The notes beneath the pieces are model-generated. The model saw nothing but the letters and a program-made list of their open reading frames with translations, was not told the DNA's origin and did not search any database. The position numbers were made by a program, and so were the translations under genes. Shown one piece after another: positions 1 to 29,181 of a stretch of 64,000 nt of DNA. The stretch covers positions 139,616 through 203,615 of the forward strand of contig QCGV01000001.1 of the NCBI GenBank assembly GCA_003278145.1, read 5' to 3'. This DNA comes from OCS116 cluster bacterium AG-390-A19 (GTDB lineage Bacteria > Pseudomonadota > Alphaproteobacteria > MED-G09). How positions within the stretch are numbered: position 1 is the first letter of the stretch; every line of letters begins with the position of its first letter.

Positions 1-1
1 G

Positions 2-601
2 GTTCTTAAAAGAGAGGCATTAAATTGGGGCTTGGATAAAGTTGATCCAATAATATCAAGTAGATTAGCTCAATTAGGTGAGCAATTTTTAGTAAATAAT
101 TTACCTAACGAAGAACTTTCTGAAGAGTCTTTAAATTCTTTTTATAACGAGAACAAACATTTTTATATTGATGATGCAAAAGTTACTTTCTCTCATATTT
201 TTTTTCGTAATAGTGATGAAAAAATAATCAATGATTTAACTTCTTATGTTCGAACTCAAAATGAAGAATTTTTTAATAATAATTTATTAAACAAGATTTC
301 AGTATTTCCGTATCAGAAAAATTATGCACAAAGAAGTGAGTCATTTATTAGAGGACATTTTGGTGAAAAAACAACACAAGAAATTTTTGCACTTGAAATT
401 AGTTCAAAGTGGCAAGGACCAATACAATCTCCTTATGGTTTTCATATAATTAAACTTACATCAGTTACAGAAGCTAAACAAAAATCATTTGAAGAGGTCA
501 GTGACTTAGTTTTAAAAAGATTTATTAGCGAAAGAAGAAAAGCAAATTTAAAATTAGAGTTAGAAAAAAAGATTTCTGGTTATCAAATAATTGATGATTA
601 A
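2..601 (+). CDS. Parvulin/PpiC-type peptidyl-prolyl isomerase-like protein, C-terminal part (5' end lies off the window)
   Basis: The frame is open from base 2, with no stop upstream of the listed TTG at 32. Parvulin-like core GPIQSPYGFHIIKL near the C-terminus. Overall resemblance to the PpiD/SurA-like ORF at 18360-19214. Confidence 0.6.
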   Translation, partial: VLKREALNWGLDKVDPIISSRLAQLGEQFLVNNLPNEELSEESLNSFYNENKHFYIDDAKVTFSHIFFRNSDEKIINDLTSYVRTQNEEFFNNNLLNKISVFPYQKNYAQRSESFIRGHFGEKTTQEIFALEISSKWQGPIQSPYGFHIIKLTSVTEAKQKSFEEVSDLVLKRFISERRKANLKLELEKKISGYQIIDD

Positions 602-1879
602 TTATGCTTTATCAAATTCAATATTTAGGCTATCCAGTCCTCTAAGTAAAACATTTGGACTATAGTTAAAATCATTTTTTTCAGTAAATCTCATATTTTT
701 TAATCTATCTAAAATGATTGGGAAAGCTGTATACATTTCCTTTCTTGATAAATTCATTCCAAGGCAAACATGAATTCCTTGCCCAAATGCAACATGACGA
801 CGAGCATTTTTTCTTGTTACATCAAATTTATCAGGATTTTCAAATAAATCTTCGTCTCTGTTTCCTGAGCCGTAACGAAGGAGTAAAGCTGACCCTGCTG
901 GAATTGCAACACCACCTAATTCAGTATCCTCTGTAGCAATTCTCCACATATTATTCGTCGGTGTAAGCAATCTAAGAGATTCTTCAATCATGTTTGGTAT
1001 TAGGCTATGATCATTAACAACTAATTCCATTTGATCTGGGTTTTCTATTAGTAGCTTTATTGCCTCAGTAATTGAATGTGCGGTAGTAGCATTACCAGCA
1101 ACAAGAAGCTGCTGGATAATTGATAACTGTTCTGGAGTTTCCATTTTTCTTGTAACATCGTTTTCATCTTCAAATTCTAAAGTTGCAAGATCTGATAAAA
1201 TATCATCGGTAGGATTTTTTGCTTTTTCATCTAATCTCTCAGCAAAATATTGTTGAAACTTTACTAGCTTTTTTGCAATTTCAATATGTTCCTCTGGCGT
1301 GCTTGTTCCTGATAATTGATCAGTAAATGCCTGTGAAGATATTCTAAAAAATTCATAGTCATCTGTTGATGCACCTAGCGCTTCAGCAATAACCCTAATT
1401 GGTAAGGGTTGTGCTAATTGAGTTGCAACTTCACATTTTCCATCTTCGATGAATTGATCAATTATAAAATTAGTCTTTTCTTCAATTGCTGGCCCCATAT
1501 CGGAAACTCTTTTAGGAGTAAATGCTTTATCAACCAAACTTCTATATTTTGTATGTCTAGGTGGATCAGCAGTAAGCATTGTGTTAACAGCAGGATAACC
1601 ATCCTTTTCCATGATTTCTGCTGCTTCCTGAGGATAAACATCAGATCCTCCATCCCTTTGTAGTGCACCGAAATCATTAGAAAATACTTTTGCATTTCTT
1701 GCTGCTTCGCATATTAATTCATGTTTTGATACTTGAAAAATACCTGTATTTGGATCTTGATACACAGGAGCTTCATCTCTTAGTTTTTTATAAAAAGCAT
1801 GGGGACATTTCATAAGCTCTTGGTCAAAAATATTTATCTCTTCTAAATTATCTTCAATTGGTTTAATGGCTTCACTCAT
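602..1879 (-). CDS. Cytochrome P450 monooxygenase
   Basis: Heme-thiolate loop FGQGIHVCLG, EXXR motif (ESLR), I-helix AGNATT, length 425 aa. Confidence 0.92.
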   Translation of the reverse strand: MSEAIKPIEDNLEEINIFDQELMKCPHAFYKKLRDEAPVYQDPNTGIFQVSKHELICEAARNAKVFSNDFGALQRDGGSDVYPQEAAEIMEKDGYPAVNTMLTADPPRHTKYRSLVDKAFTPKRVSDMGPAIEEKTNFIIDQFIEDGKCEVATQLAQPLPIRVIAEALGASTDDYEFFRISSQAFTDQLSGTSTPEEHIEIAKKLVKFQQYFAERLDEKAKNPTDDILSDLATLEFEDENDVTRKMETPEQLSIIQQLLVAGNATTAHSITEAIKLLIENPDQMELVVNDHSLIPNMIEESLRLLTPTNNMWRIATEDTELGGVAIPAGSALLLRYGSGNRDEDLFENPDKFDVTRKNARRHVAFGQGIHVCLGMNLSRKEMYTAFPIILDRLKNMRFTEKNDFNYSPNVLLRGLDSLNIEFDKA

Positions 1880-2135
1880 GATTTATGTCTCCTAAAAATC
1901 AACTTTAAATTATTATTATATAAGAGCTTTATGCACCTAATTTCAATAAAAAAGATAGAACTTATTTTTTCCTAAATTGTTGCAAAATAACAACATTTAC
2001 TAGTTTTTATATATAAAATTATTGACTAAAAAGAATTTAATTGAGAAAATTTAAAAAGTTAACTCAAAACTTATCATAAATAATAAAAAGTAAGTCTTTG
2101 AAAAAATTGATAATAATAATAATGGGGAGCTTAAA

Positions 2136-4607
2136 ATGCGTTTTTTTAAGTATATGTTTATTGGTTTCATTTTTGTTGCAATTACATTAATAGCTGATAA
2201 CAGAGCTTTTGCTCAAGAGACAGGTGTTTCTTCAAGACAGATAGACGAAATAATTGTTACTTCAAGAAAAACTGAAGAAAATATTCAGGATGTTCCAATT
2301 GCTGTTTATGCAGTAGATGAGAAAGCTTTAGATGATTTTCGACCAACAACTATGAGAGACTTAGATAGTCTTGCACCTAATTTGCAAGTTGGTATGAATT
2401 CAGCTTCAGGTAATCAAGGTGCAATTTTTGTTCGTGGATGTGGTTATGCCGAAGTAGAAAAAACTCAAAATCCACCAGTAGGCTTAATTGTTGATGGATT
2501 ATTTTTAGGAACTAATACCGGTACTTTATTAGATGCTTTTGATTGGTCTAAGATACAGGTGAATTCAGGTCCTCAAGGTGTTGTTTATGGTAAAAATACT
2601 TCTTGTGGTAATATTGTTGTAGAAAGAAATAAGCCATCAAAAGATTTTGAATTTGACACTGAAGTGTCAATTGGTAACTATGAGGCATATGAATTAGGCG
2701 TCATATTAAATATTCCTATCAATGATAAAGTTTCTTCACGTTGGAACTTTAGAAAACTTGCTCACCAAGGTTATTATGACAATTTATATACTGAAAAAGA
2801 TTCAGGACAATTAGATATTGCTGCGGCAAGTGCTCGTTTTTTAATTGAAGCATCTGAAAATACTGAAATTTATATCATTACAGACTATTATTATGATAGA
2901 GGTGATACAGCACCAGTTTCCTATTCAGGAAATCCTTTTGGTGCAGGATGTGTTCCTAATTTTGGAGCTGGTTTAGGATTGGTTGGAGCAGCTGATAATG
3001 GATGTACTCCTGGTCTGGGAGCAGTAACTGCAACTGAGTTAAGTACAGCTGGTGCAGCAATTGGTATTACTCCTTTTGCTGGTTTTGCAGGGCTTGAGCC
3101 ATTTTTCTCTCAAACTGAGGCACTTCCTCCTCACGTTGTTAATCTTGATAACCCAGAACAATCAGATATGGATTTTCTAAGAGGCAGTATTGAAGTTGTT
3201 TCAGATACTTTGATCGGTGAAGTAACTATTGCTACTTCTTATTTACAGTTAGATGACAATGTTCTTCAAGATTTTGATGCAACTCCAGGTTTTGGTGGTG
3301 GCCAAGGAAATCCTGCTACATTAGGTGGACCTCTTCATACTGCAAGAAATCAACATTTTTCTCAGTTTTCTCAGGAAATTAGAGTTTCTAATGATATAAC
3401 TGACAAATTAAACTTAACTACTGGAATATTTTTATGGAAAGACTCTATAATGCTTCAGCAACATTCTGGTGGAGTTGTTCAAACTTCAGGTCAAGATACA
3501 GAGTCTGTAGCAATTTTTGCATTAGTTAAATATGATGTATCAGATGATTTATCTATTTCTGGTGGTTTTAGATATGTTGATGAATCAAAAGACTTTCATT
3601 CTCAATATAATACTATTGTAGGTCCAGGTACTTATGGAACTGTTGCTCCTCTTGACTCTCCAGTTGTACTACCTAGGTTTACGAGATCAGCATCTTGGGA
3701 TGATTACATGGGTGAAGCATCTGTCGATTGGCAAGTAACAGAGGATAGTCTTTTATACGCTAGATGGGCAAGGGGCTTTAGATCAGGGGGTTATTCTATT
3801 AGATATGCAGCATCGGATACTCTAACTGCCTCTAGAGTAGCAGATCTGAATGCTCAAGGATTTGCTCTGGTTCCTCAAGCACATGCTAGAGAAGGAAGTG
3901 ACTTTAGTGTATTTGATCCAGAACTTACTGAATTATTTGAAATAGGATCTAAAAACACATTTTTAGATGGTTCTTTGCAAGTGAATGGTGCTGTCTTTCA
4001 AACTACTACTGAAGGTTTCCAAGCTTCAAGTATTTTGTCAACAGCTGGTGCGTTTAGAGCAACTGATACTTACATTAATAATTATCAGGAAACAGAAATA
4101 TCTGGTGCAGAGGTTCAAATTGTTTGGTTACCTCCAGTAGACGGTCTAACTCTCAGATTAAATTATGGTATCTTGGATCCAAAGATCAATGATGCTGTAG
4201 TTGATTCTGGAAGATTGGGTGTTGGCGGCAGACCAACCCAAGCAGGAACAATGGTTGATCTAGTAAATTCTGGGGTCACTCCTCAATTAGCGAGAGTTCC
4301 AGAGACAAGTTTTGCATTAACAGCTTTGTATGAATATAAACTTAATAATGGTGCATCGCTTAACACAAATGTAACATACAGAGGTTTCGATGATCAGAAT
4401 TTAACTATTTCATCATTCCCAGATAGTGAAGATGGATATGAGCTTCTAGATGCAACTATAACTTATGATGCTGGTGATTATTCTATTGCACTTATTGGTA
4501 GAAATCTTACTGACGAGGAATATAGAACTCACTCATTAACATCTGTTAGATTCCAAGGTTGGGGTGATCCTGCAACTTACATGTTAGAATTACGAAATTC
4601 TTGGTAA
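2136..4607 (+). CDS. TonB-dependent outer-membrane receptor
   Basis: Signal peptide; plug-type N-terminus (DEIIVTSRKTEENIQDVP, VNSGPQGVVYGKNTSCG); 823 aa with beta-strand-like alternation; C-terminal aromatic residue (..LRNSW); GGGGAG Shine-Dalgarno 7 nt upstream of the ATG. Confidence 0.85.
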   Translation: MRFFKYMFIGFIFVAITLIADNRAFAQETGVSSRQIDEIIVTSRKTEENIQDVPIAVYAVDEKALDDFRPTTMRDLDSLAPNLQVGMNSASGNQGAIFVRGCGYAEVEKTQNPPVGLIVDGLFLGTNTGTLLDAFDWSKIQVNSGPQGVVYGKNTSCGNIVVERNKPSKDFEFDTEVSIGNYEAYELGVILNIPINDKVSSRWNFRKLAHQGYYDNLYTEKDSGQLDIAAASARFLIEASENTEIYIITDYYYDRGDTAPVSYSGNPFGAGCVPNFGAGLGLVGAADNGCTPGLGAVTATELSTAGAAIGITPFAGFAGLEPFFSQTEALPPHVVNLDNPEQSDMDFLRGSIEVVSDTLIGEVTIATSYLQLDDNVLQDFDATPGFGGGQGNPATLGGPLHTARNQHFSQFSQEIRVSNDITDKLNLTTGIFLWKDSIMLQQHSGGVVQTSGQDTESVAIFALVKYDVSDDLSISGGFRYVDESKDFHSQYNTIVGPGTYGTVAPLDSPVVLPRFTRSASWDDYMGEASVDWQVTEDSLLYARWARGFRSGGYSIRYAASDTLTASRVADLNAQGFALVPQAHAREGSDFSVFDPELTELFEIGSKNTFLDGSLQVNGAVFQTTTEGFQASSILSTAGAFRATDTYINNYQETEISGAEVQIVWLPPVDGLTLRLNYGILDPKINDAVVDSGRLGVGGRPTQAGTMVDLVNSGVTPQLARVPETSFALTALYEYKLNNGASLNTNVTYRGFDDQNLTISSFPDSEDGYELLDATITYDAGDYSIALIGRNLTDEEYRTHSLTSVRFQGWGDPATYMLELRNSW

Positions 4608-4630
4608 TATAGTAAAAATAAAGAAATTAA

Positions 4631-4664
4631 AGGATGAAGCACTGGTGTTTCATCCTTTTTTTTT
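4631..4664 (+). terminator. Rho-independent terminator after the first TonB-dependent receptor
   Basis: AGGATGAAGCA / TGTTTCATCCT stem (11 bp including one G-U), 4-nt loop, followed by a run of 9 T. Confidence 0.85.
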
Positions 4665-4693
4665 GTAATATCAAAACTTAAATTCGGAAATCT

Positions 4694-5449
4694 ATGGAAA
4701 ATCTCAAAAATAAAACTTTTATTATTACTGGCGGAGGAAGGGGTATTGGAGCCGAAGCCTCTAAATTAATTGCTTCAAATGGAGCAAATGTGATTTTAAC
4801 ATGCAGAACTGAAAGTCAGGGTTTTTCCGTTGAAAAAGAAATATTAAATAATGGTGATAATGCTAAATTTATTCCTCAAGATGTAACTATAGAAAGTGAT
4901 TGGCGAAAAGTTATTGATGAAGGTCTCGAATTGTATGGTCGTATTGATGGAGTTGTAAATAACGCTGGAACATTCTCATGGAAATCTATGAATGAGTCTA
5001 AATTAGATGATTTTAAAGAAGTTATTGATGTTAATTTAGCTGGATCTTTTCTTGGTTTAAAATATGGGACAGAAGCTATTAGAAAACACGGAGAGGGTGG
5101 TTCTATTGTTATGATTTCTTCAGTTCTTGGTAAAGTAGGAGCACCAAATACTACTGCAGTTTGTGCTGCTAAAGGTGGTGTAAGACTTTTAGCAAAAGCA
5201 GGTGCTTGCGAATTAGGACCAGAAAAAATAAGAGTTAATTCAATTCATCCAGGCTTAACTGACACTGAGGTTGGAAAAGTTTTTACTTCTGGTTTAAGTG
5301 ATAAGCAATTTATCCAATCAAATATTCCTATGGGTAGAATGGCTAGATCAGAAGAAATCGCAAAAACAATTTTATTTTTAGTTTCCGAAGAGTCTTTTTT
5401 TATGACTGGTGCTGAATTGACTATTGATGGAGGTTTTACCGCAGGGTAG
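4694..5449 (+). CDS. Short-chain dehydrogenase/reductase (SDR) paralogue lacking the catalytic tyrosine
   Basis: TGGGRGIG cofactor motif, NNAG, ISSV serine. The expected Y-x3-K reads V156-C-A-A-K160 (codon GTT at 5159-5161). Confidence 0.85.
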   Translation: MENLKNKTFIITGGGRGIGAEASKLIASNGANVILTCRTESQGFSVEKEILNNGDNAKFIPQDVTIESDWRKVIDEGLELYGRIDGVVNNAGTFSWKSMNESKLDDFKEVIDVNLAGSFLGLKYGTEAIRKHGEGGSIVMISSVLGKVGAPNTTAVCAAKGGVRLLAKAGACELGPEKIRVNSIHPGLTDTEVGKVFTSGLSDKQFIQSNIPMGRMARSEEIAKTILFLVSEESFFMTGAELTIDGGFTAG

Positions 5450-5454
5450 TAATT

Positions 5455-6222
5455 ATGGGTAAATTAGATCAAAAAGTTGCAATTGTTACTGGTGCTACAT
5501 CAGGTATTGGAAGAGAAACTGCTATCTTGTTATCTCGAGAGGGAGCCTCAGTTGTATTCACTGGCAGAAATAAAGATGCTGCTGAAGAGACATCAGACCT
5601 TATTTCTAAAGAAGGAGGTAAATGTTTATTTATTCAGCATGATGTTGCCGATGAGAATAATTGGATTGAAGTTATAAAAACTACAAAGGATCATTTTGGT
5701 TCATTGGATATTTTAGTTAACAATGCCGGACAATTTTTTCTAAAACCAATAATGGAAACCTCTTTAGAGGATTTTAATCAAATTTGTTCAGTTAATATTG
5801 ATGGTGCATGGTTGGGTATGAAACACTGTCTACCTGAAATGAATGATGGTGGCGCTATTGTCAATGTGTCCTCCTTAATGGGCCAAATGGGTCTTCCTGA
5901 TGCCTCAGGTTATTGCGCCTCAAAAGGTGCGGTTACATCTATGACTAAGGCTGCTGCATTAGAGGTTGCAGATAGAAATATTAAAATAAATGCTTTACAC
6001 CCAGGCGTCATTTGGACACCTATGGTTGGAGCAGGTTCTGAGGGTGATAATGATCTAAAAAGTTTTTTTCAATTAGAAACCCCGCTTAGAGAAGTAGGGT
6101 TACCAAAAAATATGGCAGATGCTATATTATTTTTATGCACTACTGAGTACCTTACAGGATCAGATTTAAATGTAGATGGCGGAAGATTTGCTGATGGCGC
6201 TATGGGCAGTAACGCTAGTTAA
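5455..6222 (+). CDS. Classical SDR oxidoreductase
   Basis: TGATSGIG, NNAG, SSLMG...YCASKGAV (intact Y-x3-K), PG motif. Lies 5 nt after the preceding SDR. Confidence 0.88.
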   Translation: MGKLDQKVAIVTGATSGIGRETAILLSREGASVVFTGRNKDAAEETSDLISKEGGKCLFIQHDVADENNWIEVIKTTKDHFGSLDILVNNAGQFFLKPIMETSLEDFNQICSVNIDGAWLGMKHCLPEMNDGGAIVNVSSLMGQMGLPDASGYCASKGAVTSMTKAAALEVADRNIKINALHPGVIWTPMVGAGSEGDNDLKSFFQLETPLREVGLPKNMADAILFLCTTEYLTGSDLNVDGGRFADGAMGSNAS

Positions 6223-6230
6223 CAATTCTA

Positions 6231-7490
6231 ATGACAACATCTATTAAAACTTCACCGAAAGAGAGAAAATTAGGATTCAGGGTTCTGTTTCTTGCTATGT
6301 TTGCAATTGGAACTGGTCAGACTCTTTTTATTGCAGTTTTACCTCCTTATGCAAGAGGACTAGGTTTATCAGAAGTTCAAGTTGGATTTATATTTTCATT
6401 ATCAGCACTCGGTTGGATGATAATGAGCCCATTTTGGGGAAGAAAAAGTGATTTCATAGGTAGAAAATCTATAATAATTCTTGGTCTTTTAGTATACGCA
6501 TTTACAACAATTTTAATGGGGCTTGAATTTAGATTGAATGAGTTAGGGTATATTAATTTAAGTACTTTGTTTGGCTTATTAATCTTTACTAGAGGTTGTT
6601 ATGGTTTTTTAGGTTCAGGTGCCCACTCAGCATCGATGGCTTATGTAGCTGATCGAACTACTGAAAAAGAAAGATCAGGTATTATGGCTGTAATGGGTTC
6701 CGCTTTCGCAATTAGTGGCATTGTTGGCCCTGGTTTAGCCTCTGCTGCAGTTATGTTGGGTCCATTGGTACCTTATTTTCTTTTTGGTTTTATTACAGCA
6801 CTTATTGCTTTATTGATTTTTATTTTCTTACCTGAAAAAACTAAACCTATTCGTCCTGCTAAAGTCCATGAAGCAAGACTTACACCATATGATACACGAG
6901 TAATTACTTTTGCTTTGATGGGTTTATGTATTAGCCAAACATCAGCTGTTGTTATGCAAATTTTATCATTATATCTGCAAGATAAGTTTGGTTACAGTAA
7001 TACAGAAGCTTCAGTATATACTGGCTCAATGTTAATTTTTACTGGAGTTGCTACATTAATTGTTCAGTTAGGTATTATAAGAAATATTTCACCAACTCCA
7101 TCAATTTTACTAAGGCTTGGCTCAATAGCGACAATTATATCCCTAATATTGATTGTTGCCTCTAAAGACTTATATTTAATGGGTTTTGCAATGGCTATAT
7201 ATGGAGTTGGTGGAGCATTGATGGGACCAGGCTTATTTACAGGTCTATCACTAGCAGTTGGTAAAGATGAACAAGGTGCAGCAGCAGGTATTTTGGTAAG
7301 CTCTTATGCAGCGGGTTTTCTTATAAATCCTTTAACAGGTATGCAATTATTTATCATAAATGTTAACTTTCCTTATTATCTTGGGGTTGCATTAATGTTC
7401 ATATGCTTGTTGATTGCTTTTTTTGATAAAAGGCTAAATAGAGTTGTAGAATATGAGGACAATGTTGACTTTCAAAGTCATAATGGTTGA
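6231..7490 (+). CDS. Major facilitator superfamily transporter
   Basis: About 12 hydrophobic segments and an MFS loop motif (GRKSDFIGRK) between the predicted TM2 and TM3. Lies 8 nt after the SDR pair. Confidence 0.85.
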   Translation: MTTSIKTSPKERKLGFRVLFLAMFAIGTGQTLFIAVLPPYARGLGLSEVQVGFIFSLSALGWMIMSPFWGRKSDFIGRKSIIILGLLVYAFTTILMGLEFRLNELGYINLSTLFGLLIFTRGCYGFLGSGAHSASMAYVADRTTEKERSGIMAVMGSAFAISGIVGPGLASAAVMLGPLVPYFLFGFITALIALLIFIFLPEKTKPIRPAKVHEARLTPYDTRVITFALMGLCISQTSAVVMQILSLYLQDKFGYSNTEASVYTGSMLIFTGVATLIVQLGIIRNISPTPSILLRLGSIATIISLILIVASKDLYLMGFAMAIYGVGGALMGPGLFTGLSLAVGKDEQGAAAGILVSSYAAGFLINPLTGMQLFIINVNFPYYLGVALMFICLLIAFFDKRLNRVVEYEDNVDFQSHNG

Positions 7491-9587
7491 TTAAAAAGTT
7501 CCTTCAAGTTCGATTTTAAAAAAGCTATGCTCGTTTATATCAAAATTTTCTTGAATAAGTAGATCGTTATTTGATTTAAATCCATTATAAATTAATTTTC
7601 TTCCAAAGCCAAAATTTGTATCTAAAATATTTTTTGCAATAAAGTTAAAATTTAATCTTGGATTAATCTTGGCAGTAAAACCAAAACTTAAAGTAGGATC
7701 TTGTGCAAATCTTCCCCATAAATAAGGGTCATAAATATTAAATTGTGATTGGGATCTATAAGTTAAGCCCCAACTATATTTTCCTCCTGGGATATCTTGC
7801 CTTAAACCAATCATAGTTTGCCATCTTTTATACCATGAAAAATCTCTTTTAATATTTGTTACAGGATCGATCACTTCTGTACTTTGAAGATAGCCCATAA
7901 ACCTAAAAACACCTCCTTCAAGAAGTTTATTTATTCTAATACTCCCATCAATTCTTGCTTGAGTTTTTTCTCCTGAGCCTAAATTTCCTATCCCAGCATA
8001 ACCATCAATAGGAAGCCTATCTACTGGACCATCTATTTTACTAGCTAAACCTTTTATGGTTACAACCCCTCCATCATTAGGTAATCTCCATTCATGTTCT
8101 AATTTGACTTCCCAAGATGTTTCTGGTTTTAAGTCTGGATTTCCTGCACGAATAGTTTCTTCAAATTGGTCATAGCTTGAGATAAAGTCATCAAAATTAA
8201 TTTGACCAACATTTCTCTCAATATTAAATCTTATCTGCCGATTATTTTTATAGTCCCATTTAATATCTATTCTAGGTTTCCAATATTTAAACTCTCTTGA
8301 TAAATTTATATCTCCGGATTGGCTGATTTCTGACCATTCATAATTTAGGGCTAATTCTGTTCTAATTTTTTTTGATAAAGGAATGTTATATGATAAAAAT
8401 CCTTCATATCTATCTTCTTCTACTAATCCAGATGTATTAATTAGACCGGCGTTAGTAGCTACGGAGTCTTTATCGAAGTATATAAGATTAAAAGTCCTAT
8501 TTAATTTATTATAAGCGCTTTCAATACCGTATTCGAGTGAATTACTTTTGCCTATTAGTTTGTTAAAACTTAATCTAATAATTCTTTCATTTTCTTTTCT
8601 GATATTTGTTTCATCACTATTGTTGTAAGAGTCTATAGTGTCATCTAAGAACGAAGTATCATTTTGATCCTCATTCTCTTCTGTTAGCACAACTCTTAAT
8701 TTAAATGAGTTGTTTTTATTAATTTGATATTCCCAGTCACCTCCAAATTCCCATCCATCATTATCTTCTCTTCTATCCCAGTTAATTTTTTTGTAAAACG
8801 TCTCGTTATTGATATCTGAAGGTGAAAAATATTCTTGAATTTGTGGGGCATTTTCTTTGCCATTAAACCACACCAAAGTATTTATTCTTATAGTATTTTT
8901 ATCATTAATTTTTGAATTTAGATCTATATTTACCCTGTTACTCGATTGGTACTCAATTGTTTCTCTTAATCTATAATACAGAAGTGACTGTTCTTGATCG
9001 ACAGTAAATTCATTATATTTTCTGCTATTTAGATCACCAATTCTTTCAAATCCTATAACAATATCGGTTTTTTTTATTTTTGTTGCCCAAGATCCTATTC
9101 CTCGCCAGTTACTACTGCCAGAGGTTAGATATCCTAAAGCAGCACTCCAGGTTCCCGAGCCTTTTGATAAATTACCATCCACTATTATATTAACAATTAT
9201 TCCATCTGAACGAACATCAAGGCCTGCTTCCGAGCCTCTAATAACTTCTATTTTAATTAATGAGTCAGCATTTATTCTTTCTAATGTTTTTATAATGTTA
9301 TTACTTTTGGAGGATTGTCTTTCACCATTAATTAAAATTTGAGCCCCAGAAGAACCAAAACCTCTTTTTTTATTATTACTTCCTGGTTCGTAATTCTCTG
9401 AATAATTACCAGAGCTTAAATTTTCAACACCTGGTATTCTTTTAATGGCATCAGCGGCATTAGTTATATTGTATTGTCTAAAGTAAGCTTGATCATAGAT
9501 AATTTTATTACTTTCTTGAGAGAAAGCCTCAAGAGGAAATAAAATTAAAATAAATAAATAAAAAAAAAATTTTTTCCAAAAAATCAT
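7491..9587 (-). CDS. TonB-dependent receptor-like outer-membrane beta-barrel protein
   Basis: Signal peptide; plug-like segment (AADAIKRIPGV, IEVIRGSEAGLDV); long amphipathic beta-strand region; C-terminal Phe (..LEGTF). Lies 8 nt downstream of the dioxygenase gene on the same strand. Confidence 0.7.
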   Translation of the reverse strand: MIFWKKFFFYLFILILFPLEAFSQESNKIIYDQAYFRQYNITNAADAIKRIPGVENLSSGNYSENYEPGSNNKKRGFGSSGAQILINGERQSSKSNNIIKTLERINADSLIKIEVIRGSEAGLDVRSDGIIVNIIVDGNLSKGSGTWSAALGYLTSGSSNWRGIGSWATKIKKTDIVIGFERIGDLNSRKYNEFTVDQEQSLLYYRLRETIEYQSSNRVNIDLNSKINDKNTIRINTLVWFNGKENAPQIQEYFSPSDINNETFYKKINWDRREDNDGWEFGGDWEYQINKNNSFKLRVVLTEENEDQNDTSFLDDTIDSYNNSDETNIRKENERIIRLSFNKLIGKSNSLEYGIESAYNKLNRTFNLIYFDKDSVATNAGLINTSGLVEEDRYEGFLSYNIPLSKKIRTELALNYEWSEISQSGDINLSREFKYWKPRIDIKWDYKNNRQIRFNIERNVGQINFDDFISSYDQFEETIRAGNPDLKPETSWEVKLEHEWRLPNDGGVVTIKGLASKIDGPVDRLPIDGYAGIGNLGSGEKTQARIDGSIRINKLLEGGVFRFMGYLQSTEVIDPVTNIKRDFSWYKRWQTMIGLRQDIPGGKYSWGLTYRSQSQFNIYDPYLWGRFAQDPTLSFGFTAKINPRLNFNFIAKNILDTNFGFGRKLIYNGFKSNNDLLIQENFDINEHSFFKIELEGTF

Positions 9588-9595
9588 TAGTTTAT

Positions 9596-11005
9596 TTATG
9601 CTCTATTTTCAAACCAGCCATGGAAACCATAAGGCACTCTATGAGGGAGTTGAGCCGTAGCTACTGGACCATCATCAACATGTTGAGCATCTAAGAAGAT
9701 TAAATTTGATCTATTTTCAGCACCGTTATATTCCGTAGCTATTAACCATCCTTCTCCATCTTTACTGTCCTTTGATTTAGGTGCAAAAACAGGCTCACCT
9801 ACTGCTCCACCTTCAGCAGTGGTATAAGATTTTCTTTCACCAGTATTATAATCATAATGAATAATTGAATTAAGAGACATACCCTTAGGATGGTTCCCAA
9901 TACTTCCAGCATAGTAACCATGAGCGTATTTACGTAGTGCAAACCTTTCATCAAACCTTGGGAATTCCCCTGTTATATTATCTAATGAAGTTTTAATTAA
10001 TTTAGAATTCTTTATATCAATTTCCCATCTTGCATGTTTAGCTTCTGCTTCTGATTGTTTTGGCATAGTACCATCTGCATATGGGAATAAAGGTGGAAGT
10101 CCAAATTCCATACAATCACATATTATAGAACCATTTTCTTCATAAGAATTCATATAATGAAATACAAAGGTTGGATCTGCTTCAATCCATTTTGCATCTT
10201 TAGCAGTACCATTTCTAGGCATTACACAAATGTGGCTTCCTTTTTCAGGTTCCCATGCAAAAGCTGGACCCCCATTTATTACTCGCTCAAAATCACCCGT
10301 TAAAGGAAAAACAGGTATTATTATATAATTTTCAGTGGCAAAAAAATCATGAACCATTGATGGAAATGGTGCCTTAATTAACTCAGATTTTGAAATCTTT
10401 CCATCCTTTGATACAGATGTATACCTTATTGTATCACTAAAAAAACCATCAGCCATATATCCAAAAAATAATAATTCTCCTGTAACTGGATCTACTTTAG
10501 GATGGGCTGTAACAGGACCTTGAAGTTTACTATCAAATGTATGGGATCCAATTGACTTAAGAGTAAATGGATCAAACTCAAAAGGTGCATGTGCCTCTTC
10601 AAGCGCTAAAAGCTTTCCAGCATGAGAAACTATCGAAGTATTTGCTAACCCATCGGTTTCTAAACCCTGAACTGAAGGATCAGTATCTGTAGGGTCCATT
10701 CCACTTGGAAATAGTGCCTCACCGGCTTCGTGTTCTTTAAGCCACTTTACAGTTCTCATCCAACGGTTAATGTATGAAACTTTTCCATTATTGATATGAA
10801 AGGCATGAACCATTCCGTCGCCACCAAACCAATGAGATTTACCTCCTCTAGGAGAAAATTTTGGATCAGGACCATTTCTGTAATAGCTACCATTTATTTC
10901 TAAAGGAACATTACCCTCTATTATTAAATCATCAACGTTACTTTCCATTCTTAGTGGTGCAAAATTTCCTATGAGATGATCTTCTTTTGGATATGGTTTA
11001 GCCAT
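9596..11005 (-). CDS. Carotenoid-cleavage/lignostilbene dioxygenase family (RPE65/CCD) enzyme
   Basis: All four family iron-ligand histidine contexts are present: TAHPKVDP, MVHDFFATENY, VFHYMNSYEE, YGFHGWFE. Length 469 aa. Confidence 0.88.
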   Translation of the reverse strand: MAKPYPKEDHLIGNFAPLRMESNVDDLIIEGNVPLEINGSYYRNGPDPKFSPRGGKSHWFGGDGMVHAFHINNGKVSYINRWMRTVKWLKEHEAGEALFPSGMDPTDTDPSVQGLETDGLANTSIVSHAGKLLALEEAHAPFEFDPFTLKSIGSHTFDSKLQGPVTAHPKVDPVTGELLFFGYMADGFFSDTIRYTSVSKDGKISKSELIKAPFPSMVHDFFATENYIIIPVFPLTGDFERVINGGPAFAWEPEKGSHICVMPRNGTAKDAKWIEADPTFVFHYMNSYEENGSIICDCMEFGLPPLFPYADGTMPKQSEAEAKHARWEIDIKNSKLIKTSLDNITGEFPRFDERFALRKYAHGYYAGSIGNHPKGMSLNSIIHYDYNTGERKSYTTAEGGAVGEPVFAPKSKDSKDGEGWLIATEYNGAENRSNLIFLDAQHVDDGPVATAQLPHRVPYGFHGWFENRA

Positions 11006-11142
11006 TTTTAATTCCCCTTTATTTATTTCTTCTTCATGTATTATAAATTTTTATTTTTTATATGTAAAAGGGATTGTTGCTTTAGATTTACTGTGCTGTA
11101 ATAAAGATGTTTATAAGGCATTTATGAGAAGGAGATAGTTAA

Positions 11143-12573
11143 ATGAAAGAATGTATGCAATTTTATATTAACGGTGAATGGGTAGATCCAGTTGACCCAA
11201 AGTCTTTAGATGTTATTAATCCCGCAACAGAAGAAGTAATTGGTAAAATAGCTATGGGTAACAGCCAAGATGTTAATAAAGCTGTTGCTGCTGCGAAAGA
11301 AGCATTTGAAAGTTTTTCTCAAACAACAAAAGAAGAGCGTTTAGCTCTTATGGGAAAAATTCTTGAAGTTTATCAATCACGTTATGATGAAATTGCAGAA
11401 ACAATTTCTTCTGAAATGGGTGCACCTTTGTGGCTTTCAAAGGCGGCTCAAGCTGCTACTGGAGCAGGGCATTTTGGTACATTTATGGAAGTTTTAAAAA
11501 ATTATAACTTTGATGAAGATAAGGGAACAACCAGACTCAGAAAAGAGCCAGTTGGTGTCTGTGGTTTGATTACTCCTTGGAACTGGCCAATCAATCAGAT
11601 TGCTTGTAAGGTTGCACCAGCATTAGCTGCAGGATGTACTATGGTTTTAAAGCCATCAGAAGTTTCTCCGTTAAATGCAGTAATATTTGCTGAAGTTCTT
11701 CATGAAGCAGGAGTTCCTGCTGGAGTATTTAACCTTGTAAATGGTGATGGTTTAAGTGTCGGTGAAGCAATGTCCTCTCATCCCGATATTGATATGATGT
11801 CGTTTACGGGTTCAACTAGAGCAGGGGTTGCTGTAGCTAAAGCTTCTGCAGACACTGTAAAAAGAGTTTCTCAAGAATTAGGTGGTAAATCAGCTAACAT
11901 TATTCTTGATGATGCTGATTTCAATCAATCAGTTGCCGGCGGTGTTACAGGTTGCTTTATGAATTCTGGTCAATCATGTAATGCACCTACTCGAATGCTT
12001 GTTCCTGCTGATAGGCAGGATGAGGCTGTTGCTATTGCTAAAGCGACTGCAGAGGCAACTGTAGTAGGCGATCCCAAAGAAGTTGCAGCTGGAGGAATTG
12101 GTCCAGTTGTAAGTGAAGTTCAATTTAATAAAATTCAAGGATTAATTGAAAAAGGTATTGAGGAAGGCGCTACACTTGTTGCTGGTGGCCCAGGAAAGCC
12201 TGAAGGTTTTAATGCTGGTTATTATGTTAAACCAACTATTTTCTCAGATGTATCGAATGATATGACTATTGCCAGAGAAGAAATTTTTGGTCCTGTTTTA
12301 TCAATTCTTCCATACAAAGATGAAGATGATGCTATATCAATTGCCAATGATACAGAGTATGGATTATCAGGCTATGTATCTGGAAGTCAGGAAAAAGCTC
12401 AAAAGTTTGCTGAGAAATTTCGTTCAGGTAATGTTCATGTTAATGGCGCAGGTCCAGATTTTAATGCACCGTTTGGCGGCTATAAGAAGTCGGGTAATGG
12501 TAGAGAGTGGGGTGATCTTGGTTTTGAAGAATTCTTAGAAATCAAAGCGATTCTTGGCTATAACGCTGCTTAA
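11143..12573 (+). CDS. NAD(P)-dependent aldehyde dehydrogenase
   Basis: Catalytic Glu motif ELGGKS, catalytic Cys context NSGQSCNAPTR, PWNWP, EEIFGPV. AGGAG Shine-Dalgarno upstream. Confidence 0.93.
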   Translation: MKECMQFYINGEWVDPVDPKSLDVINPATEEVIGKIAMGNSQDVNKAVAAAKEAFESFSQTTKEERLALMGKILEVYQSRYDEIAETISSEMGAPLWLSKAAQAATGAGHFGTFMEVLKNYNFDEDKGTTRLRKEPVGVCGLITPWNWPINQIACKVAPALAAGCTMVLKPSEVSPLNAVIFAEVLHEAGVPAGVFNLVNGDGLSVGEAMSSHPDIDMMSFTGSTRAGVAVAKASADTVKRVSQELGGKSANIILDDADFNQSVAGGVTGCFMNSGQSCNAPTRMLVPADRQDEAVAIAKATAEATVVGDPKEVAAGGIGPVVSEVQFNKIQGLIEKGIEEGATLVAGGPGKPEGFNAGYYVKPTIFSDVSNDMTIAREEIFGPVLSILPYKDEDDAISIANDTEYGLSGYVSGSQEKAQKFAEKFRSGNVHVNGAGPDFNAPFGGYKKSGNGREWGDLGFEEFLEIKAILGYNAA

Positions 12574-12595
12574 ACTAAACTAAATTAAATTTAAG

Positions 12596-12623
12596 AAGGC
12601 TGCTCTTTTGTGCAGCCTTTTTT
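12596..12623. terminator. Bidirectional rho-independent terminator between convergent ALDH and PCu(A)C genes
   Basis: AAGGCTGC / GCAGCCTT 8-bp stem, 8-nt loop, then a T-run that reaches the stop codon of the minus-strand gene. Confidence 0.75.
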
Positions 12624-18353: not shown

Positions 18354-18359
18354 AATATT

Positions 18360-24104: not shown

Positions 24105-24112
24105 ATTGTTTC

Positions 24113-24592: not shown

Positions 24593-24607
24593 AAAGCTTA
24601 GAGTTTA

Positions 24608-25882: not shown

Positions 25883-25909
25883 GTTTTTCCCCTTTATTTA
25901 TTTGAAAGC

Positions 25910-29121: not shown

Positions 29122-29177
29122 ATTCATATTTTATGAATAATTATATTGATTCTTAAATAAATTCATAATATATGAAT
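29122..29177. promoter_or_regulatory. Two copies of a perfect 17-bp palindrome, ATTCATA-N3-TATGAAT (candidate operator pair or RNA hairpins)
   Basis: Copy 1 is 29122-29138 (ATTCATATTTTATGAAT). Copy 2 is 29161-29177 (ATTCATAATATATGAAT). Both sit inside a 24-nt direct repeat, AAATAAATTCATAnnnTATGAATA, with 39-bp spacing. Copy 2 ends 4 nt before the hisZ ATG. Confidence 0.5.
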
Positions 29178-29181
29178 ATTT

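What the first reader, a model, noticed from the sequence alone, without database searches (positions are those of the whole stretch)
602..12573. Regulator-less uptake-plus-oxidation locus: P450, two TonB-dependent receptors, two SDRs, MFS, cleavage dioxygenase, ALDH
**Seen in sequence:** eight adjacent genes form compact units.
- P450 on the minus strand.
- TBDR on the plus strand, ending in a strong terminator at 4631-4664.
- SDR-SDR-MFS on the plus strand.
- Dioxygenase-TBDR on the minus strand.
- ALDH on the plus strand, ending in a terminator at 12596-12623.

Family calls rest on explicit motifs: FGQGIHVCLG; the four-His set of the RPE65/CCD family; ELGGKS plus SCNAPTR.

**Established:** TonB-dependent receptors import scarce or bulky substrates across the outer membrane. 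CCD-family enzymes cleave a C=C bond of carotenoids, apocarotenoids or stilbenoids to aldehydes. ALDHs oxidise such aldehydes to acids.

**Inference:** this is a self-contained module for capture and oxidative processing of a hydrophobic polyene or aromatic compound. It sits in an otherwise housekeeping, streamlined genome. The window contains no transcription factor for it, no ferredoxin or reductase partner for the P450, and no TonB-ExbBD.
Basis: partly seen in the sequence, partly recalled or inferred. Interest (0 to 1): 0.68.

Follow-up and report, generated by a model that had tools for sequence, protein, structure and literature searches.

The report
Receptor-linked alkene-cleaving oxidation gene cluster
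An abundant small-genome ocean bacterium (PS1/OCS116 group) keeps a conserved gene cluster pairing outer-membrane import channels with enzymes that cut and oxidise a greasy, double-bonded compound; the gene calls are right, the food molecule is unknown, and this is a new variant of a known kind of nutrient-uptake cluster.

Summary
**Observation:** confirmed.

**Organism:** a PS1/OCS116-clade alphaproteobacterium, with contigs up to about 1.5 Mb.

**Conservation:** the locus keeps the same order and gene spacing in 16 species-level relatives.
- It is core genome, not a flexible island.
- Only TBDR1 comes and goes. It was lost by deletion in three relatives.

**Extent:** the locus is not self-contained. 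In a 99.7 %-identical contig the cluster continues left of the window. That stretch holds a Rieske oxygenase, a Rieske ferredoxin, two SDRs, ThuA, a third receptor and DUF3604.

**Dioxygenase:**
- It is co-transcribed with TBDR2.
- By sequence it sits with the lignostilbene dioxygenases.
- It lacks their phenol-binding Tyr and Lys, and the residues that close the stilbene pocket.
- All 80 homologues examined, including those from SAR86 and OM182, share these losses.
- It therefore belongs to a distinct marine subfamily, probably acting on a longer, non-phenolic alkene.

**Other points:**
- SDR1 lacks the catalytic Tyr.
- Neither receptor matches siderophore or B12 receptors.
- There is no riboswitch and no conserved Fur box.
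- A conserved palindrome travels with TBDR1, which points to a regulator encoded elsewhere.

**Verdict:** interpretation partly supported; new variant of a known kind; moderate interest.

The parts
32..601 (+). 3' part of a PpiC-type peptidyl-prolyl isomerase gene, cut by the window start. It is the last gene of the upstream unit: Rieske oxygenase, Rieske ferredoxin, SDR, ThuA, SDR, TBDR3, DUF3604, PPIase.
   Evidence: Pfam Rotamase_2. The full 276-aa gene and the upstream genes are seen in L081-L090, which are 99.7 % identical to the window.
602..1879 (-). Cytochrome P450 (425 aa, cytoplasmic). Its stop codon abuts the PPIase gene.
   Evidence: PF00067 at 95 bits. Heme motif FGQGIHVCLG at residue 365. 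Nearest solved structures are a CYP125 ancestor, CYP150A6 and CYP142, at 181-201 bits. No NCBIfam equivalog.
1979..1994 (.). Palindrome GTTGCAAAATAACAAC (GTTG-N8-CAAC), about 30 bp upstream of the TBDR1 -35 box. Candidate operator for a regulator encoded elsewhere.
   Evidence: Exact in the window, L004, L006, L010 and L011, with one mismatch in L003. These are all the loci with TBDR1 that were checked. It is absent from L001, L009 and L016, which lack TBDR1. Two matches in the window against 0.49 expected.
2022..2050 (+). Promoter-like site for TBDR1: TTGACT, 17 nt, GAAAAT, with an upstream TG.
   Evidence: TTGAC and the downstream AATTGAGA are conserved in all six orthologous intergenic regions.
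2136..4607 (+). TBDR1, a TonB-dependent receptor (823 aa). It is transcribed alone and is the accessory, variable member of the locus.
   Evidence: Plug plus barrel. Signal peptide, TonB box DEIIVTS and C-terminal Trp. Best NCBIfam hit is the siderophore subfamily, at 84 bits against a cut-off of 223.5. PDB shows only plug-level similarity, 35 bits to FhuA. Absent from L001, L009 and L016.
4629..4666 (+). Intrinsic terminator after TBDR1: a 13-pair stem followed by a T-run.
   Evidence: and the sequence. The hairpin survives as a remnant in L001, L009 and L016, which lack TBDR1.
4694..5449 (+). SDR1, an SDR-fold protein lacking the catalytic Tyr. Probably a non-catalytic or atypical partner of SDR2.
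   Evidence: adh_short at 157 bits. TGGGRGIG is present but there is no YxxxK; the sequence reads AVCAAK. At the Tyr position the orthologues have V, F or L, with Y only in L004. The Lys is His in six of them. Nearest structure is 3-alpha,20-beta-hydroxysteroid dehydrogenase 2hsd.
5455..6222 (+). SDR2, a canonical short-chain dehydrogenase.
   Evidence: adh_short at 186 bits. TGATSGIG and YCASK are conserved in all orthologues. Nearest structures are R-specific alcohol dehydrogenases and 3-alpha(20-beta)-HSD.
6231..7490 (+). MFS transporter (419 aa), last gene of the SDR1-SDR2-MFS operon. The direction of transport is not established.
   Evidence: MFS_1 at 162 bits. Only weak hits, 56 bits or less, to drug-efflux and aromatic-acid symporter families. 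Gaps of 5 and 8 bp to its neighbours. The same order is seen in all relatives.
7491..9587 (-). TBDR2, a TonB-dependent receptor (698 aa), co-transcribed downstream of the dioxygenase.
   Evidence: Plug 38 bits plus barrel 47 bits. Signal peptide and C-terminal Phe. No PDB relative at E below 0.01. Only TIGR01782 at 48 bits. The gap to the dioxygenase is 3-20 bp in 12 relatives. Detectable homologues are confined to the clade.
9596..11005 (-). Carotenoid-cleavage-family (RPE65) dioxygenase. It is lignostilbene-dioxygenase-like but lacks the phenol-binding and pocket-closing residues.
   Evidence: RPE65 at 440 bits. LSD model NF053778 at 404 bits against a cut-off of 800. Nearest structures are PbLSD 5v2d (317 bits) and LsdA (311 bits), against ACO at 172 bits. 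G102, M103, E136 and A138 stand at the positions of PbLSD Tyr103, Arg104, Lys135 and Asp137.
11040..11068 (-). Promoter of the dioxygenase-TBDR2 operon: TTTACA, 17 nt, TATAAT (11 of 12 matches to consensus).
   Evidence: Both hexamers are conserved in all 18 orthologous intergenic regions aligned.
11143..12573 (+). NAD(P)-dependent aldehyde dehydrogenase, transcribed divergently from the dioxygenase.
   Evidence: Aldedh at 518 bits. ELGGKS and SCNAPTR are present. Nearest structures are 6x9l (547 bits), 3i44 and 3ty7. No NCBIfam equivalog cut-off is reached.
12593..12622 (.). Two-way terminator hairpin between the ALDH gene and the convergent PCuAC gene.
   Evidence: found on both strands.

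Best explanation
**What it is.** It forms four or five transcription units.

**Proposed steps**
1. TBDR2 imports the substrate across the outer membrane. It shares a strong, conserved sigma-70-type promoter with the dioxygenase.
2. The MFS protein probably carries the substrate across the inner membrane. All the enzymes lack signal peptides.
3. The Fe(II) four-His dioxygenase cleaves a C=C bond to give aldehydes or ketones.
4. The divergently transcribed ALDH oxidises the aldehyde to an acid.
5. SDR2 oxidises a secondary alcohol, probably in complex with the Tyr-less SDR1. The P450 hydroxylates the substrate.

**Likely substrate.** The dioxygenase has lost the Tyr/Lys pair that binds the 4-hydroxyl of stilbenes. 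It has also lost the polar residues that close the stilbene pocket. The most likely substrate is therefore a longer, non-phenolic conjugated alkene, such as an apocarotenoid-like or other isoprenoid polyene, and not lignostilbene.

**TBDR1.** This is an accessory receptor. It has its own promoter, candidate operator and terminator.

**Shown.** Gene families, operon layout, conservation across the clade, the active-site substitutions, and the absence of an adjacent regulator gene or a riboswitch.

**Inferred.** The direction of transport, the order of the steps and the identity of the substrate.
For: **Gene families**
- All eight family assignments hold.

**Operon layout and conservation**
- The dioxygenase|TBDR2 gap is 3-20 bp in the 12 relatives where it could be measured.
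- SDR1-SDR2-MFS gaps are 6-43 bp in most loci.
- The dioxygenase promoter is conserved in 18 loci.
- The whole order is kept in 16 species-level genomes, with dioxygenase identity falling to 76 %.

**Independent re-association**
- In OM182 locus L072 the order is receptor, aldo-keto reductase, dioxygenase homologue, SDR, Rieske oxygenase, TetR.
- In SAR86 locus L057 the homologue sits between two alpha/beta hydrolases and an alkenal-type reductase.

**Dioxygenase active site**
- Phe59 is kept.
- Tyr101 is Gly, Lys134 is Glu and Asp137 (PbLSD numbering) is Ala.
- The same kind of replacement is seen in all 80 homologues.
- These residues bind the stilbene 4-OH (PMC8191317).
- In PbLSD, moving Lys135 and Asp137 opens a carotenoid-type tunnel (PMC6097328).

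**Partner enzymes resemble ones that act on bulky aliphatic or alicyclic substrates**
- P450: CYP125 and CYP142.
- SDRs: hydroxysteroid and secondary-alcohol dehydrogenases.
- ALDH: 6x9l at 547 bits. From memory this is P. syringae AldC. AldC is a long-chain aliphatic ALDH according to PMC7745063.

**Receptors**
- They are not siderophore or B12 type.
- There is no riboswitch and no conserved Fur box.

**Expression in the sea**
- TonB-receptor transcripts of the OCS116 genus AG-430-B22 are abundant in situ (PMC13096325).
Against: - By overall sequence the dioxygenase is much closer to stilbene-cleaving enzymes (about 300-317 bits) than to carotenoid-cleaving ones (151-202 bits).
- A Glu at the Lys134 position could still hydrogen-bond a phenol.
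- The adjoining unit carries a Rieske 'ring-hydroxylating' oxygenase and VOC-fold proteins. That would fit an aromatic substrate.
- Synteny within the clade includes unrelated flanking genes, so it does not prove a functional link.
- In most gammaproteobacterial genomes examined the homologue stands among unrelated genes.
- The resemblances of the P450, SDRs and ALDH are at roughly 30-55 % identity, and no equivalog cut-off is met.
- The weak family hits of the MFS protein are mostly to exporters.
- No experiment bears on any step.
Confidence: 0.5

Rival explanations
1. This is a catabolic locus for phenolic stilbenoids or lignin-derived dimers, of the Sphingobium SYK-6 type. The receptor and MFS protein import an aromatic dimer. 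The SDRs oxidise or invert benzylic alcohols. The LSD-like enzyme cleaves the resulting stilbene. The ALDH oxidises vanillin-type aldehydes. The P450 and the neighbouring Rieske oxygenase demethylate or hydroxylate the rings.
For: - The best NCBIfam and PDB matches of the dioxygenase are all lignostilbene or resveratrol dioxygenases.
- The known SYK-6 pathways use the same parts list (PMC12997858; PMC8191317):
  - SDR pairs (LigD/LigL, LdpB/LdpC);
  - LSDs;
  - aldehyde dehydrogenases;
  - the receptor DdvT;
  - the MFS transporter DdvK.
- A Rieske oxygenase, a Rieske ferredoxin and VOC-fold genes adjoin the locus.
Against: - The defining catalytic residues Tyr101 and Lys134 are missing from the window protein and from all 80 homologues.
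- The LSD equivalog score is half the cut-off.
- The nearest structure to the ALDH is not a vanillin or benzaldehyde dehydrogenase.
- The hosts are open-ocean oligotrophs, namely OCS116, SAR86 and OM182. From general knowledge, lignin stilbenes are scarce there.
Confidence: 0.2
2. The locus is for salvage, not catabolism. The dioxygenase cuts an imported carotenoid or apocarotenoid to make a useful product, for example retinal for a rhodopsin or a signalling apocarotenoid. The other enzymes trim the by-products.
For: - The enzyme belongs to the carotenoid-cleavage family and its stilbene pocket gate is removed.
- Its operon mate is an import receptor.
- The promoter looks strong and constitutive.
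- The subfamily is widespread in photic-zone lineages such as SAR86.
Against: - A divergently transcribed ALDH would oxidise retinal.
- There is no rhodopsin or carotenoid gene in the 64-kb window.
- No literature link was found.
- The cleavage position cannot be predicted from sequence.
Confidence: 0.1
3. The locus is not one functional unit. The genes are neighbours only because PS1/OCS116 genomes are collinear and tightly packed. TBDR1, and possibly TBDR2, import unrelated nutrients such as metal chelates. The oxidoreductases serve separate pathways.
For: - The unrelated flanking genes (PCuAC, glutathione peroxidase, PPIase) are just as syntenic.
- TBDR1 is transcribed alone, can be lost, and has its own candidate operator.
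- The best subfamily hit of TBDR1 is 'siderophore'.
- Most gammaproteobacterial homologues of the dioxygenase examined have unrelated neighbours.
Against: - The dioxygenase and TBDR2 are 3-20 bp apart in the 12 relatives where the gap could be measured, behind one conserved promoter.
- About 25 kb holds an unusual density of receptors (3) and oxidoreductases: P450, dioxygenase, Rieske oxygenase, four SDR-fold proteins and the ALDH.
- OM182 rebuilds a receptor-dioxygenase-SDR-oxygenase set independently.
- No receptor reaches any siderophore or B12 cut-off, and there is no conserved Fur box or riboswitch.
Confidence: 0.15

Closest known systems
Lignostilbene-alpha,beta-dioxygenases and stilbene-cleaving oxygenases (LsdA, LSD4, NOV1, PbLSD, CAO1)
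   Same: - Same RPE65 fold family.
- Four-His iron site, with the second-sphere Glu135 equivalent, Phe59, Asn120 and Thr121 all kept.
- These are the highest-scoring solved relatives, at about 300-317 bits for the bacterial enzymes.
   Different: - Tyr101 is Gly and Lys134 is Glu.
- PbLSD Arg104 is Met and Asp137 is Ala.
- The score is 404 bits against the equivalog cut-off of 800.
- The gene is co-transcribed with a TonB-dependent receptor.
- There is no adjacent regulator gene, whereas nov1 is controlled by the MarR-like regulator Saro_0803 (title and abstract of PMC10046596, listed).
DdvT (TonB-dependent receptor) plus DdvK (MFS) uptake of the lignin-derived biphenyl DDVA in Sphingobium sp. 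SYK-6
   Same: It follows the same logic. An outer-membrane TonB-dependent receptor and an inner-membrane MFS transporter feed an organic, non-chelate substrate to cytoplasmic oxidative enzymes (references cited in PMC12997858).
   Different: - Sequence relatedness to DdvT and DdvK could not be tested, because no reference sequences were at hand.
- The host is a marine oligotroph of about 1.5 Mb.
- The receptor is in one operon with the cleavage oxygenase.
- The substrate is probably not a phenolic dimer.
Carotenoid- and apocarotenoid-cleaving oxygenases (Synechocystis ACO, carotenoid 9,10-dioxygenase, NdCCD)
   Same: - Same superfamily and iron site.
- They lack a phenol-binding Tyr/Lys pair (from my own knowledge of the family).
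- They use a through-going hydrophobic tunnel, which the substitutions here could recreate (PMC6097328).
   Different: They score only 151-202 bits against the window protein, compared with 317 bits for PbLSD. No cleavage position or tunnel could be verified.
TonB-receptor-rich catabolic loci of marine oligotrophs (for example SAR86) and polysaccharide-utilisation-type loci
   Same: - Receptor genes sit among catabolic enzymes.
- Receptor transcripts are abundant in situ, as reported for the OCS116 genus AG-430-B22 and for SAR86A (PMC13096325).
   Different: - The enzymes here are oxygenases and dehydrogenases, not glycoside hydrolases or lipases.
- There is no SusD-like partner.
- No regulator is encoded nearby.
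CYP125 and CYP142 steroid side-chain monooxygenases
   Same: They are the best solved relatives of the P450, at 181-201 bits. They oxidise terminal methyl groups of isoprenoid-like chains (from established knowledge of these families).
   Different: The similarity is only family-level. No equivalog is reached. There are no steroid-ring degradation genes in the window, and no adjacent redox partner.

Membership tests
Carotenoid cleavage oxygenase superfamily (Pfam RPE65, PF03055) | Full-length match above the gathering score | tested here: met
   440 bits against a cut-off of 27, covering residues 15-465 of 469.
Carotenoid cleavage oxygenase superfamily (Pfam RPE65, PF03055) | Four His iron ligands and a second-sphere Glu | tested here: met
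   H168, H219, H283 and H462 align with LsdA His167/218/282/472. E137 aligns with Glu135. The other two second-sphere Glu residues were not checked one by one.
Lignostilbene-alpha,beta-dioxygenase (LSD / stilbene-cleaving oxygenase) | NCBIfam equivalog score (NF053778 or NF053780) | tested here: not met
   404 bits against a cut-off of 800, and 333 bits against 650.
Lignostilbene-alpha,beta-dioxygenase (LSD / stilbene-cleaving oxygenase) | [quoted passage not shown] | tested here: not met
   Phe is kept (F60). Tyr101 is G102 and Lys134 is E136, in a gap-free stretch of the alignments to LsdA and PbLSD. No Tyr or Lys stands at these positions in any of the 80 homologous loci.
Lignostilbene-alpha,beta-dioxygenase (LSD / stilbene-cleaving oxygenase) | Cleavage of trans-4-hydroxystilbenes to two aromatic aldehydes | not testable with these tools
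   This needs an enzyme assay.
TonB-dependent receptors | Plug domain, 22-strand-barrel domain, signal peptide, TonB box and C-terminal aromatic residue | tested here: met
   Pfam Plug plus TonB_dep_Rec for both receptors. TBDR1 has a signal peptide, DEIIVTS and a C-terminal W. TBDR2 has a signal peptide, a less typical N-terminal box (NKIIYDQ) and a C-terminal F.
Siderophore, heme or cobalamin TonB-dependent receptors | Subfamily or equivalog HMM score, a close solved relative, and a Fur box or B12 riboswitch upstream | tested here: not met
   - TBDR1: TIGR01783 at 84 bits against 223.5; BtuB at 18 bits.
- TBDR2: only TIGR01782 at 48 bits against 310.
- PDB: plug-only 35 bits for TBDR1, nothing for TBDR2.
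- No Rfam hit.
- The one Fur-like match, at 2108-2122, is at chance level and is not conserved.
Cytochrome P450 | PF00067 match, Cys-ligand loop FxxGxHxCxG, and ExxR | tested here: met
   95 bits. FGQGIHVCLG at residue 365 and ESLR at residue 300.
Cytochrome P450 | A ferredoxin and reductase encoded nearby (class I operon) | tested here: not met
   No ferredoxin or ferredoxin-reductase domain was found among the window's ORFs. A Rieske-type ferredoxin lies about 7 kb left of the window start, beside a Rieske oxygenase.
Classical short-chain dehydrogenases/reductases | TGxxxGxG cofactor motif and catalytic YxxxK | tested here: inconclusive
   - SDR2 meets both (TGATSGIG, YCASK).
- SDR1 has TGGGRGIG, but the catalytic Tyr is Val.
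- In the nine SDR1 orthologues the Tyr position is Val (one), Phe (one) or Leu (six), with Tyr only in L004.
- The Lys is His in six orthologues.
Aldehyde dehydrogenase superfamily | PF00171 match with the catalytic Glu (ELGGKS) and Cys (SCNAPTR) | tested here: met
   518 bits. Motifs at residues 245 and 278. No equivalog-level assignment was reached.
Flexible genomic island | Variable presence among close relatives, an atypical base composition, and tRNA or integrase genes at the borders | tested here: not met
   - The locus and both flanks are syntenic in L001-L016.
- GC is 0.31-0.36, against 0.28-0.37 in the rest of the window.
- There is no tRNA, and no integrase domain among the window ORFs scanned.
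- Only TBDR1 is variable.

The most novel reading that the evidence does not exclude
PS1/OCS116 bacteria, and with them SAR86, OM182 and other abundant marine gammaproteobacteria that carry the same Tyr/Lys-less dioxygenase subfamily, take up phytoplankton carotenoids or apocarotenoids through a dedicated TonB-dependent receptor. They then cleave and oxidise these compounds. That would be the first defined bacterial pathway for consuming, or salvaging retinoids from, the ocean's carotenoid pool.
Probability: 0.2. Interest if true: 0.8.

Novelty: new variant of a known kind. Interest (0 to 1): 0.45.

Why it matters
**The host lineage is active in the sea.** OCS116/PS1 bacteria are among the most transcriptionally active heterotrophs at the deep chlorophyll maximum, and their TonB-receptor transcripts are prominent there (PMC13096325). 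What those receptors import is unknown.

**This locus offers a rare handle on that question.** One receptor is fused into an operon with an alkene-cleaving oxygenase, which narrows down the chemistry of the cargo.

**The enzyme defines a testable subfamily.**
- It is lignostilbene-dioxygenase-like but has no phenol-binding dyad.
- Relatives of the window enzyme were found in 454 stretches across species-representative genomes. All 80 best ones examined share the motif ALEE[AG]H or a close variant.
- A few assays with apocarotenals, carotenoids and stilbenoids would show which part of marine dissolved organic matter these streamlined cells harvest.

**If the substrate turns out to be an ordinary stilbenoid,** the locus is simply a marine version of known lignin-dimer catabolism.

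Tried and rejected
- **Flexible island: rejected.** The flanks are syntenic, base composition is normal, and there are no tRNA or mobility genes.
- **Siderophore or B12 receptor: rejected as far as it can be tested.** No cut-off is met, there is no riboswitch, and the single Fur-like match is at chance level and not conserved.
- **Canonical lignostilbene dioxygenase: rejected** on catalytic residues and on the equivalog score.
- **A shared operator in both divergent promoter regions: not found.**
  - The ATTGTTG shared with the dioxygenase/ALDH spacer is just the ALDH -35 box.
  - The full palindrome occurs only beside TBDR1.
  - My second pattern search used the wrong spacing and is uninformative.
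- **Apparent truncated receptors in contig L085:** these are 100-bp breaks in the alignment to the window, which I take to be scaffold gaps and not real variants.
- **Literature:** searches linking carotenoid cleavage with SAR86 or retinal, or lignostilbene with marine TonB receptors, found nothing. Papers on PS1 genomes gave no information on rhodopsin.
- **PDB entry 6x9l:** the AldC paper that would confirm its identity was not held, so that identification rests on memory.
- **Extending further left in the same strain:** A relative at 81 % identity was used instead.
- **Neighbourhoods of the gammaproteobacterial homologues:** they are too varied to name a substrate.

Full report
**1.

- The ORF list gives the eight genes at exactly the stated coordinates.
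- Pfam places each above its gathering score: p450, Plug plus TonB_dep_Rec twice, adh_short twice, MFS_1, RPE65 (440 bits) and Aldedh (518 bits).
- The quoted motifs are present: FGQGIHVCLG, ELGGKS and SCNAPTR.
- The four iron-binding His of the dioxygenase align with those of LsdA.
- Both terminators are found. One is a 13-pair hairpin at 4629-4658 with a T-run. The other is a two-way hairpin at 12593-12622.
- Both receptors have signal peptides and a C-terminal aromatic residue. TBDR1 has a classic TonB box, DEIIVTS.
- None of the enzymes has a signal peptide, judged by reading their N-termini.

**2. Organism and conservation**

- The dioxygenase finds 454 related stretches in species-representative genomes. 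The 16 full-length best, at 76-94 % identity, are MAGs and SAGs labelled Rhodobiaceae, PS1 clade or OCS116.
- Close homologues of TBDR2 sit on contigs of 1.45-1.49 Mb. That fits a streamlined genome.
- Every relative with a long enough contig has the same gene order: PPIase, P450, TBDR1 (where present), SDR1, SDR2, MFS, TBDR2, dioxygenase, ALDH.
- The same flanking genes follow: PCuAC, glutathione peroxidase, two acyl-CoA dehydrogenases and DUF3604.
- Spacing is conserved:
  - dioxygenase|TBDR2, 3-20 bp in the 12 loci where it could be measured;
  - TBDR2|MFS, convergent, 0-3 bp;
  - SDR2|SDR1, 6-8 bp in most loci.
- GC content is unremarkable and there is no tRNA.
- The locus is therefore core genome for this clade, not a flexible island.
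- Because unrelated flanks are equally syntenic, synteny within the clade cannot by itself prove a functional link.

**3. TBDR1 is the one variable part**

- It is absent from L001, which is the closest relative at 94 % dioxygenase identity. It is also absent from L009 and L016.
- All three keep a remnant of the TBDR1 terminator hairpin upstream of SDR1. TBDR1 was therefore lost by deletion.
- Receptor identities do not follow enzyme identities:

| Relatives | TBDR1 identity to window | TBDR2 identity to window | Enzyme identity to window |
|---|---|---|---|
| L010, L011 | 81-84 % | 83-84 % | 58-83 % |
| L003, L004 | 71-72 % | 83 % | 70-91 % |
| L006, L009 | 73 % (L006 only) | 59-62 % | 59-84 % |

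- This pattern suggests that receptor alleles are exchanged within the clade or are diversifying.

**4. The locus is not self-contained**

- Contigs encoding the identical P450 include a TARA scaffold that is 99.7 % identical to window 1-11879.
- Left of the window start it carries one co-directional run: Rieske oxygenase alpha (454 aa), Rieske ferredoxin (128 aa), SDR (252 aa), ThuA (257 aa), SDR (233 aa), a third TonB receptor (749 aa), DUF3604 (639 aa), and the PPIase whose 3' end is window 32-601.
- A VOC-fold gene is transcribed divergently from this run.
- TBDR3 is a distant paralogue of TBDR1, at 26 % identity.
- In a relative at 81 % identity the next genes to the left are two VOC genes, a Zn-ADH and ThuA, and then a 2-oxoacid dehydrogenase E1 gene. 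No regulator is seen there.
- A second DUF3604-PPIase pair lies at window 16110-19214.
It is rich in receptors (3) and in oxygenases of three classes.

**5. Regulation**

- No regulator gene lies in or next to the locus.
- The only transcription factor in the window is an OmpR-type response regulator with its kinase at 47917-49943.
- Aligning the orthologous intergenic regions shows a strong sigma-70-type promoter for the dioxygenase-TBDR2 operon: TTTACA, 17 nt, TATAAT. It is conserved in all 18 loci aligned.
- A palindrome, GTTG-N8-CAAC, lies at 1979-1994. It is present in every locus with TBDR1 that was checked and absent from those without it. There are two copies in the window against 0.49 expected.
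- I read the palindrome as an operator for a regulator encoded elsewhere.
- There is no riboswitch.
- The single Fur-like match is at chance level and is not conserved.

**6. What kind of dioxygenase**

- By whole-sequence score it belongs with the stilbene-cleaving branch:

| Comparison | Score |
|---|---|
| NCBIfam LSD model NF053778 | 404 bits (cut-off 800) |
| PbLSD (5v2d) | 317 bits |
| LsdA | 311 bits |
| NOV1 | 305 bits |
| ACO | 172 bits |

[quoted passage not shown] The last two hydrogen-bond the 4-hydroxyl of the stilbene (PMC8191317).
- In gap-free alignment blocks the window protein has F60, G102 and E136 at these positions.
- In the closest structure, PbLSD, Lys135 interacts with Tyr103. 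Rotating Lys135 and Asp137, the latter pairing with Arg104 after rotation, turns the closed stilbene cavity into a carotenoid-type through-tunnel (PMC6097328).
- The window protein has Gly, Met, Glu and Ala at those four positions.
- All 80 homologous loci lack the Tyr and the Lys, and have Ala, Gly or Ser at the Asp137 position. This covers both the PS1 clade and marine Gammaproteobacteria such as SAR86, OM182 and K189A. The usual motif is ALEE[AG]H.
- This is therefore a distinct and widespread marine subfamily.
- Membership in the LSD family fails on a defining feature.
- An opened pocket for a longer, non-phenolic alkene is the most economical reading. It remains an inference.

**7. The partner genes**

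- **P450.** Its nearest structures are a CYP125 ancestor, CYP150A6 and CYP142.
- **SDR1.**
  - Its nearest structure is 3-alpha,20-beta-hydroxysteroid dehydrogenase.
  - Its catalytic Tyr is Val. In nine orthologues that position is Val in one, Phe in one and Leu in six, with Tyr only in L004.
  - The catalytic Lys is His in six orthologues.
  - It is probably a non-catalytic partner of the canonical SDR2.
  - From memory, this is comparable to the human HSD17B8/CBR4 heterotetramer.
- **SDR2.** It is canonical, with R-specific alcohol dehydrogenases as its nearest structures.
- **ALDH.** It is closest to 6x9l at 547 bits. From memory this is P. syringae AldC. AldC is a long-chain aliphatic ALDH according to PMC7745063.
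- **MFS.** It has only weak hits, mostly to efflux families, so its direction is open.
- **Receptors.** Neither reaches any siderophore, heme or B12 cut-off, and neither has a close solved relative. Detectable homologues of TBDR2 are confined to the clade.

**8. Outside the clade**

- The dioxygenase homologue usually sits among unrelated genes.
- There are two suggestive exceptions:
  - OM182 locus L072 has receptor, aldo-keto reductase, dioxygenase, SDR, Rieske oxygenase and TetR. Its Rieske oxygenase is 33 % identical over its full length to the PS1 one.
  - SAR86 locus L057 has two alpha/beta hydrolases, the dioxygenase and an alkenal-type reductase.
- A more distant Parvibaculales MAG places the Rieske-oxygenase homologue in a large cluster for degrading hydrophobic compounds. 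That cluster has a receptor, SDRs, a thiolase with a ChsH2-like protein, and a CoA ligase.

**9. Verdict**

- **Main reading.** This is a conserved uptake-and-oxidation cluster of multiple operons. TBDR2 and the dioxygenase form its functional core. TBDR1 is an accessory receptor under separate control.
- **Substrate.** Most likely a non-phenolic conjugated alkene such as an apocarotenoid-like isoprenoid. A phenolic stilbenoid of the lignin-dimer type is the main rival (PMC12997858).
- **Context.** High in-situ expression of OCS116 receptors gives the question ecological weight (PMC13096325).
- **Novelty.** A new variant of a known kind. TonB-receptor-linked catabolic loci and LSD-like enzymes are both known. 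The fusion of receptor and dioxygenase into one operon, and the dyad-less subfamily, are not described in the literature I could search.

Noticed in passing
window 16110-19214; also L089:11279-14073 (left of the window start): A two-gene pair, DUF3604 (secreted, with an N-terminal HxH motif) followed by a membrane-anchored PpiC-type PPIase, occurs on both sides of the locus. The two copies are old paralogues, at 27-28 % identity. The left copy follows a TonB-dependent receptor directly. This could be a periplasmic processing module of unknown function.
   Followed up: partly
window 4694-5449: SDR1 lacks the catalytic Tyr: its sequence reads AVCAAK where YxxxK is expected. In nine orthologues the Tyr position is Val in one, Phe in one and Leu in six, with Tyr only in L004. 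The Lys is His in six of them. Even so, the gene is kept next to the canonical SDR2 in every genome.
   Followed up: yes
window 1979-1994 and 58414-58429: The palindrome GTTG-N8-CAAC is conserved beside TBDR1 across the clade. A second copy in the window lies inside the 5' end of the aminotransferase gene, about 180 bp upstream of an ABC transporter gene. Whether the two belong to one regulon is unknown.
   Followed up: partly
window 2136-4607 and 7491-9587, compared with L003-L011: Receptor identities are out of step with enzyme identities across the clade. TBDR1 and TBDR2 of the distant OCS116 SAGs are 81-84 % identical to the window's. Closer or equally distant relatives have receptors only 59-73 % identical. 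This suggests allele exchange or diversifying selection on the surface proteins.
   Followed up: partly
window 7488-7493: The convergent MFS and TBDR2 genes end back to back, with 0-3 bp between their stop codons in all relatives. There is no intergenic terminator, so the two converging transcripts must end inside each other's coding sequence.
   Followed up: no
window 13808-16092: Two adjacent acyl-CoA dehydrogenase genes overlap by one base. The second has no hit to the middle-domain model. This resembles the heteromeric alpha/beta ACADs of steroid side-chain degradation. They are syntenic with the locus in all relatives.
   Followed up: no
window 22809-27523: Genes for 3-hydroxyacyl-CoA dehydrogenase, an RraA-like aldolase, isocitrate lyase and malate synthase lie together about 10 kb from the locus. 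A glyoxylate shunt would suit growth on acetyl-CoA from oxidised lipids or isoprenoids.
   Followed up: no
L072:6566-14240 (OM182 SAG) and L057:7981-12444 (SAR86B MAG): Gammaproteobacterial homologues of the dioxygenase show two different small clusters. In OM182 the order is receptor, aldo-keto reductase, dioxygenase, SDR, Rieske oxygenase, TetR. In SAR86 it is two alpha/beta hydrolases, the dioxygenase and an alkenal-type reductase.
   Followed up: partly
window 27619-31514: The histidyl-tRNA synthetase gene is followed by a HisS-like paralogue (452 aa, probably HisZ) and hisG. This looks like the usual HisZ/HisG arrangement.
   Followed up: no
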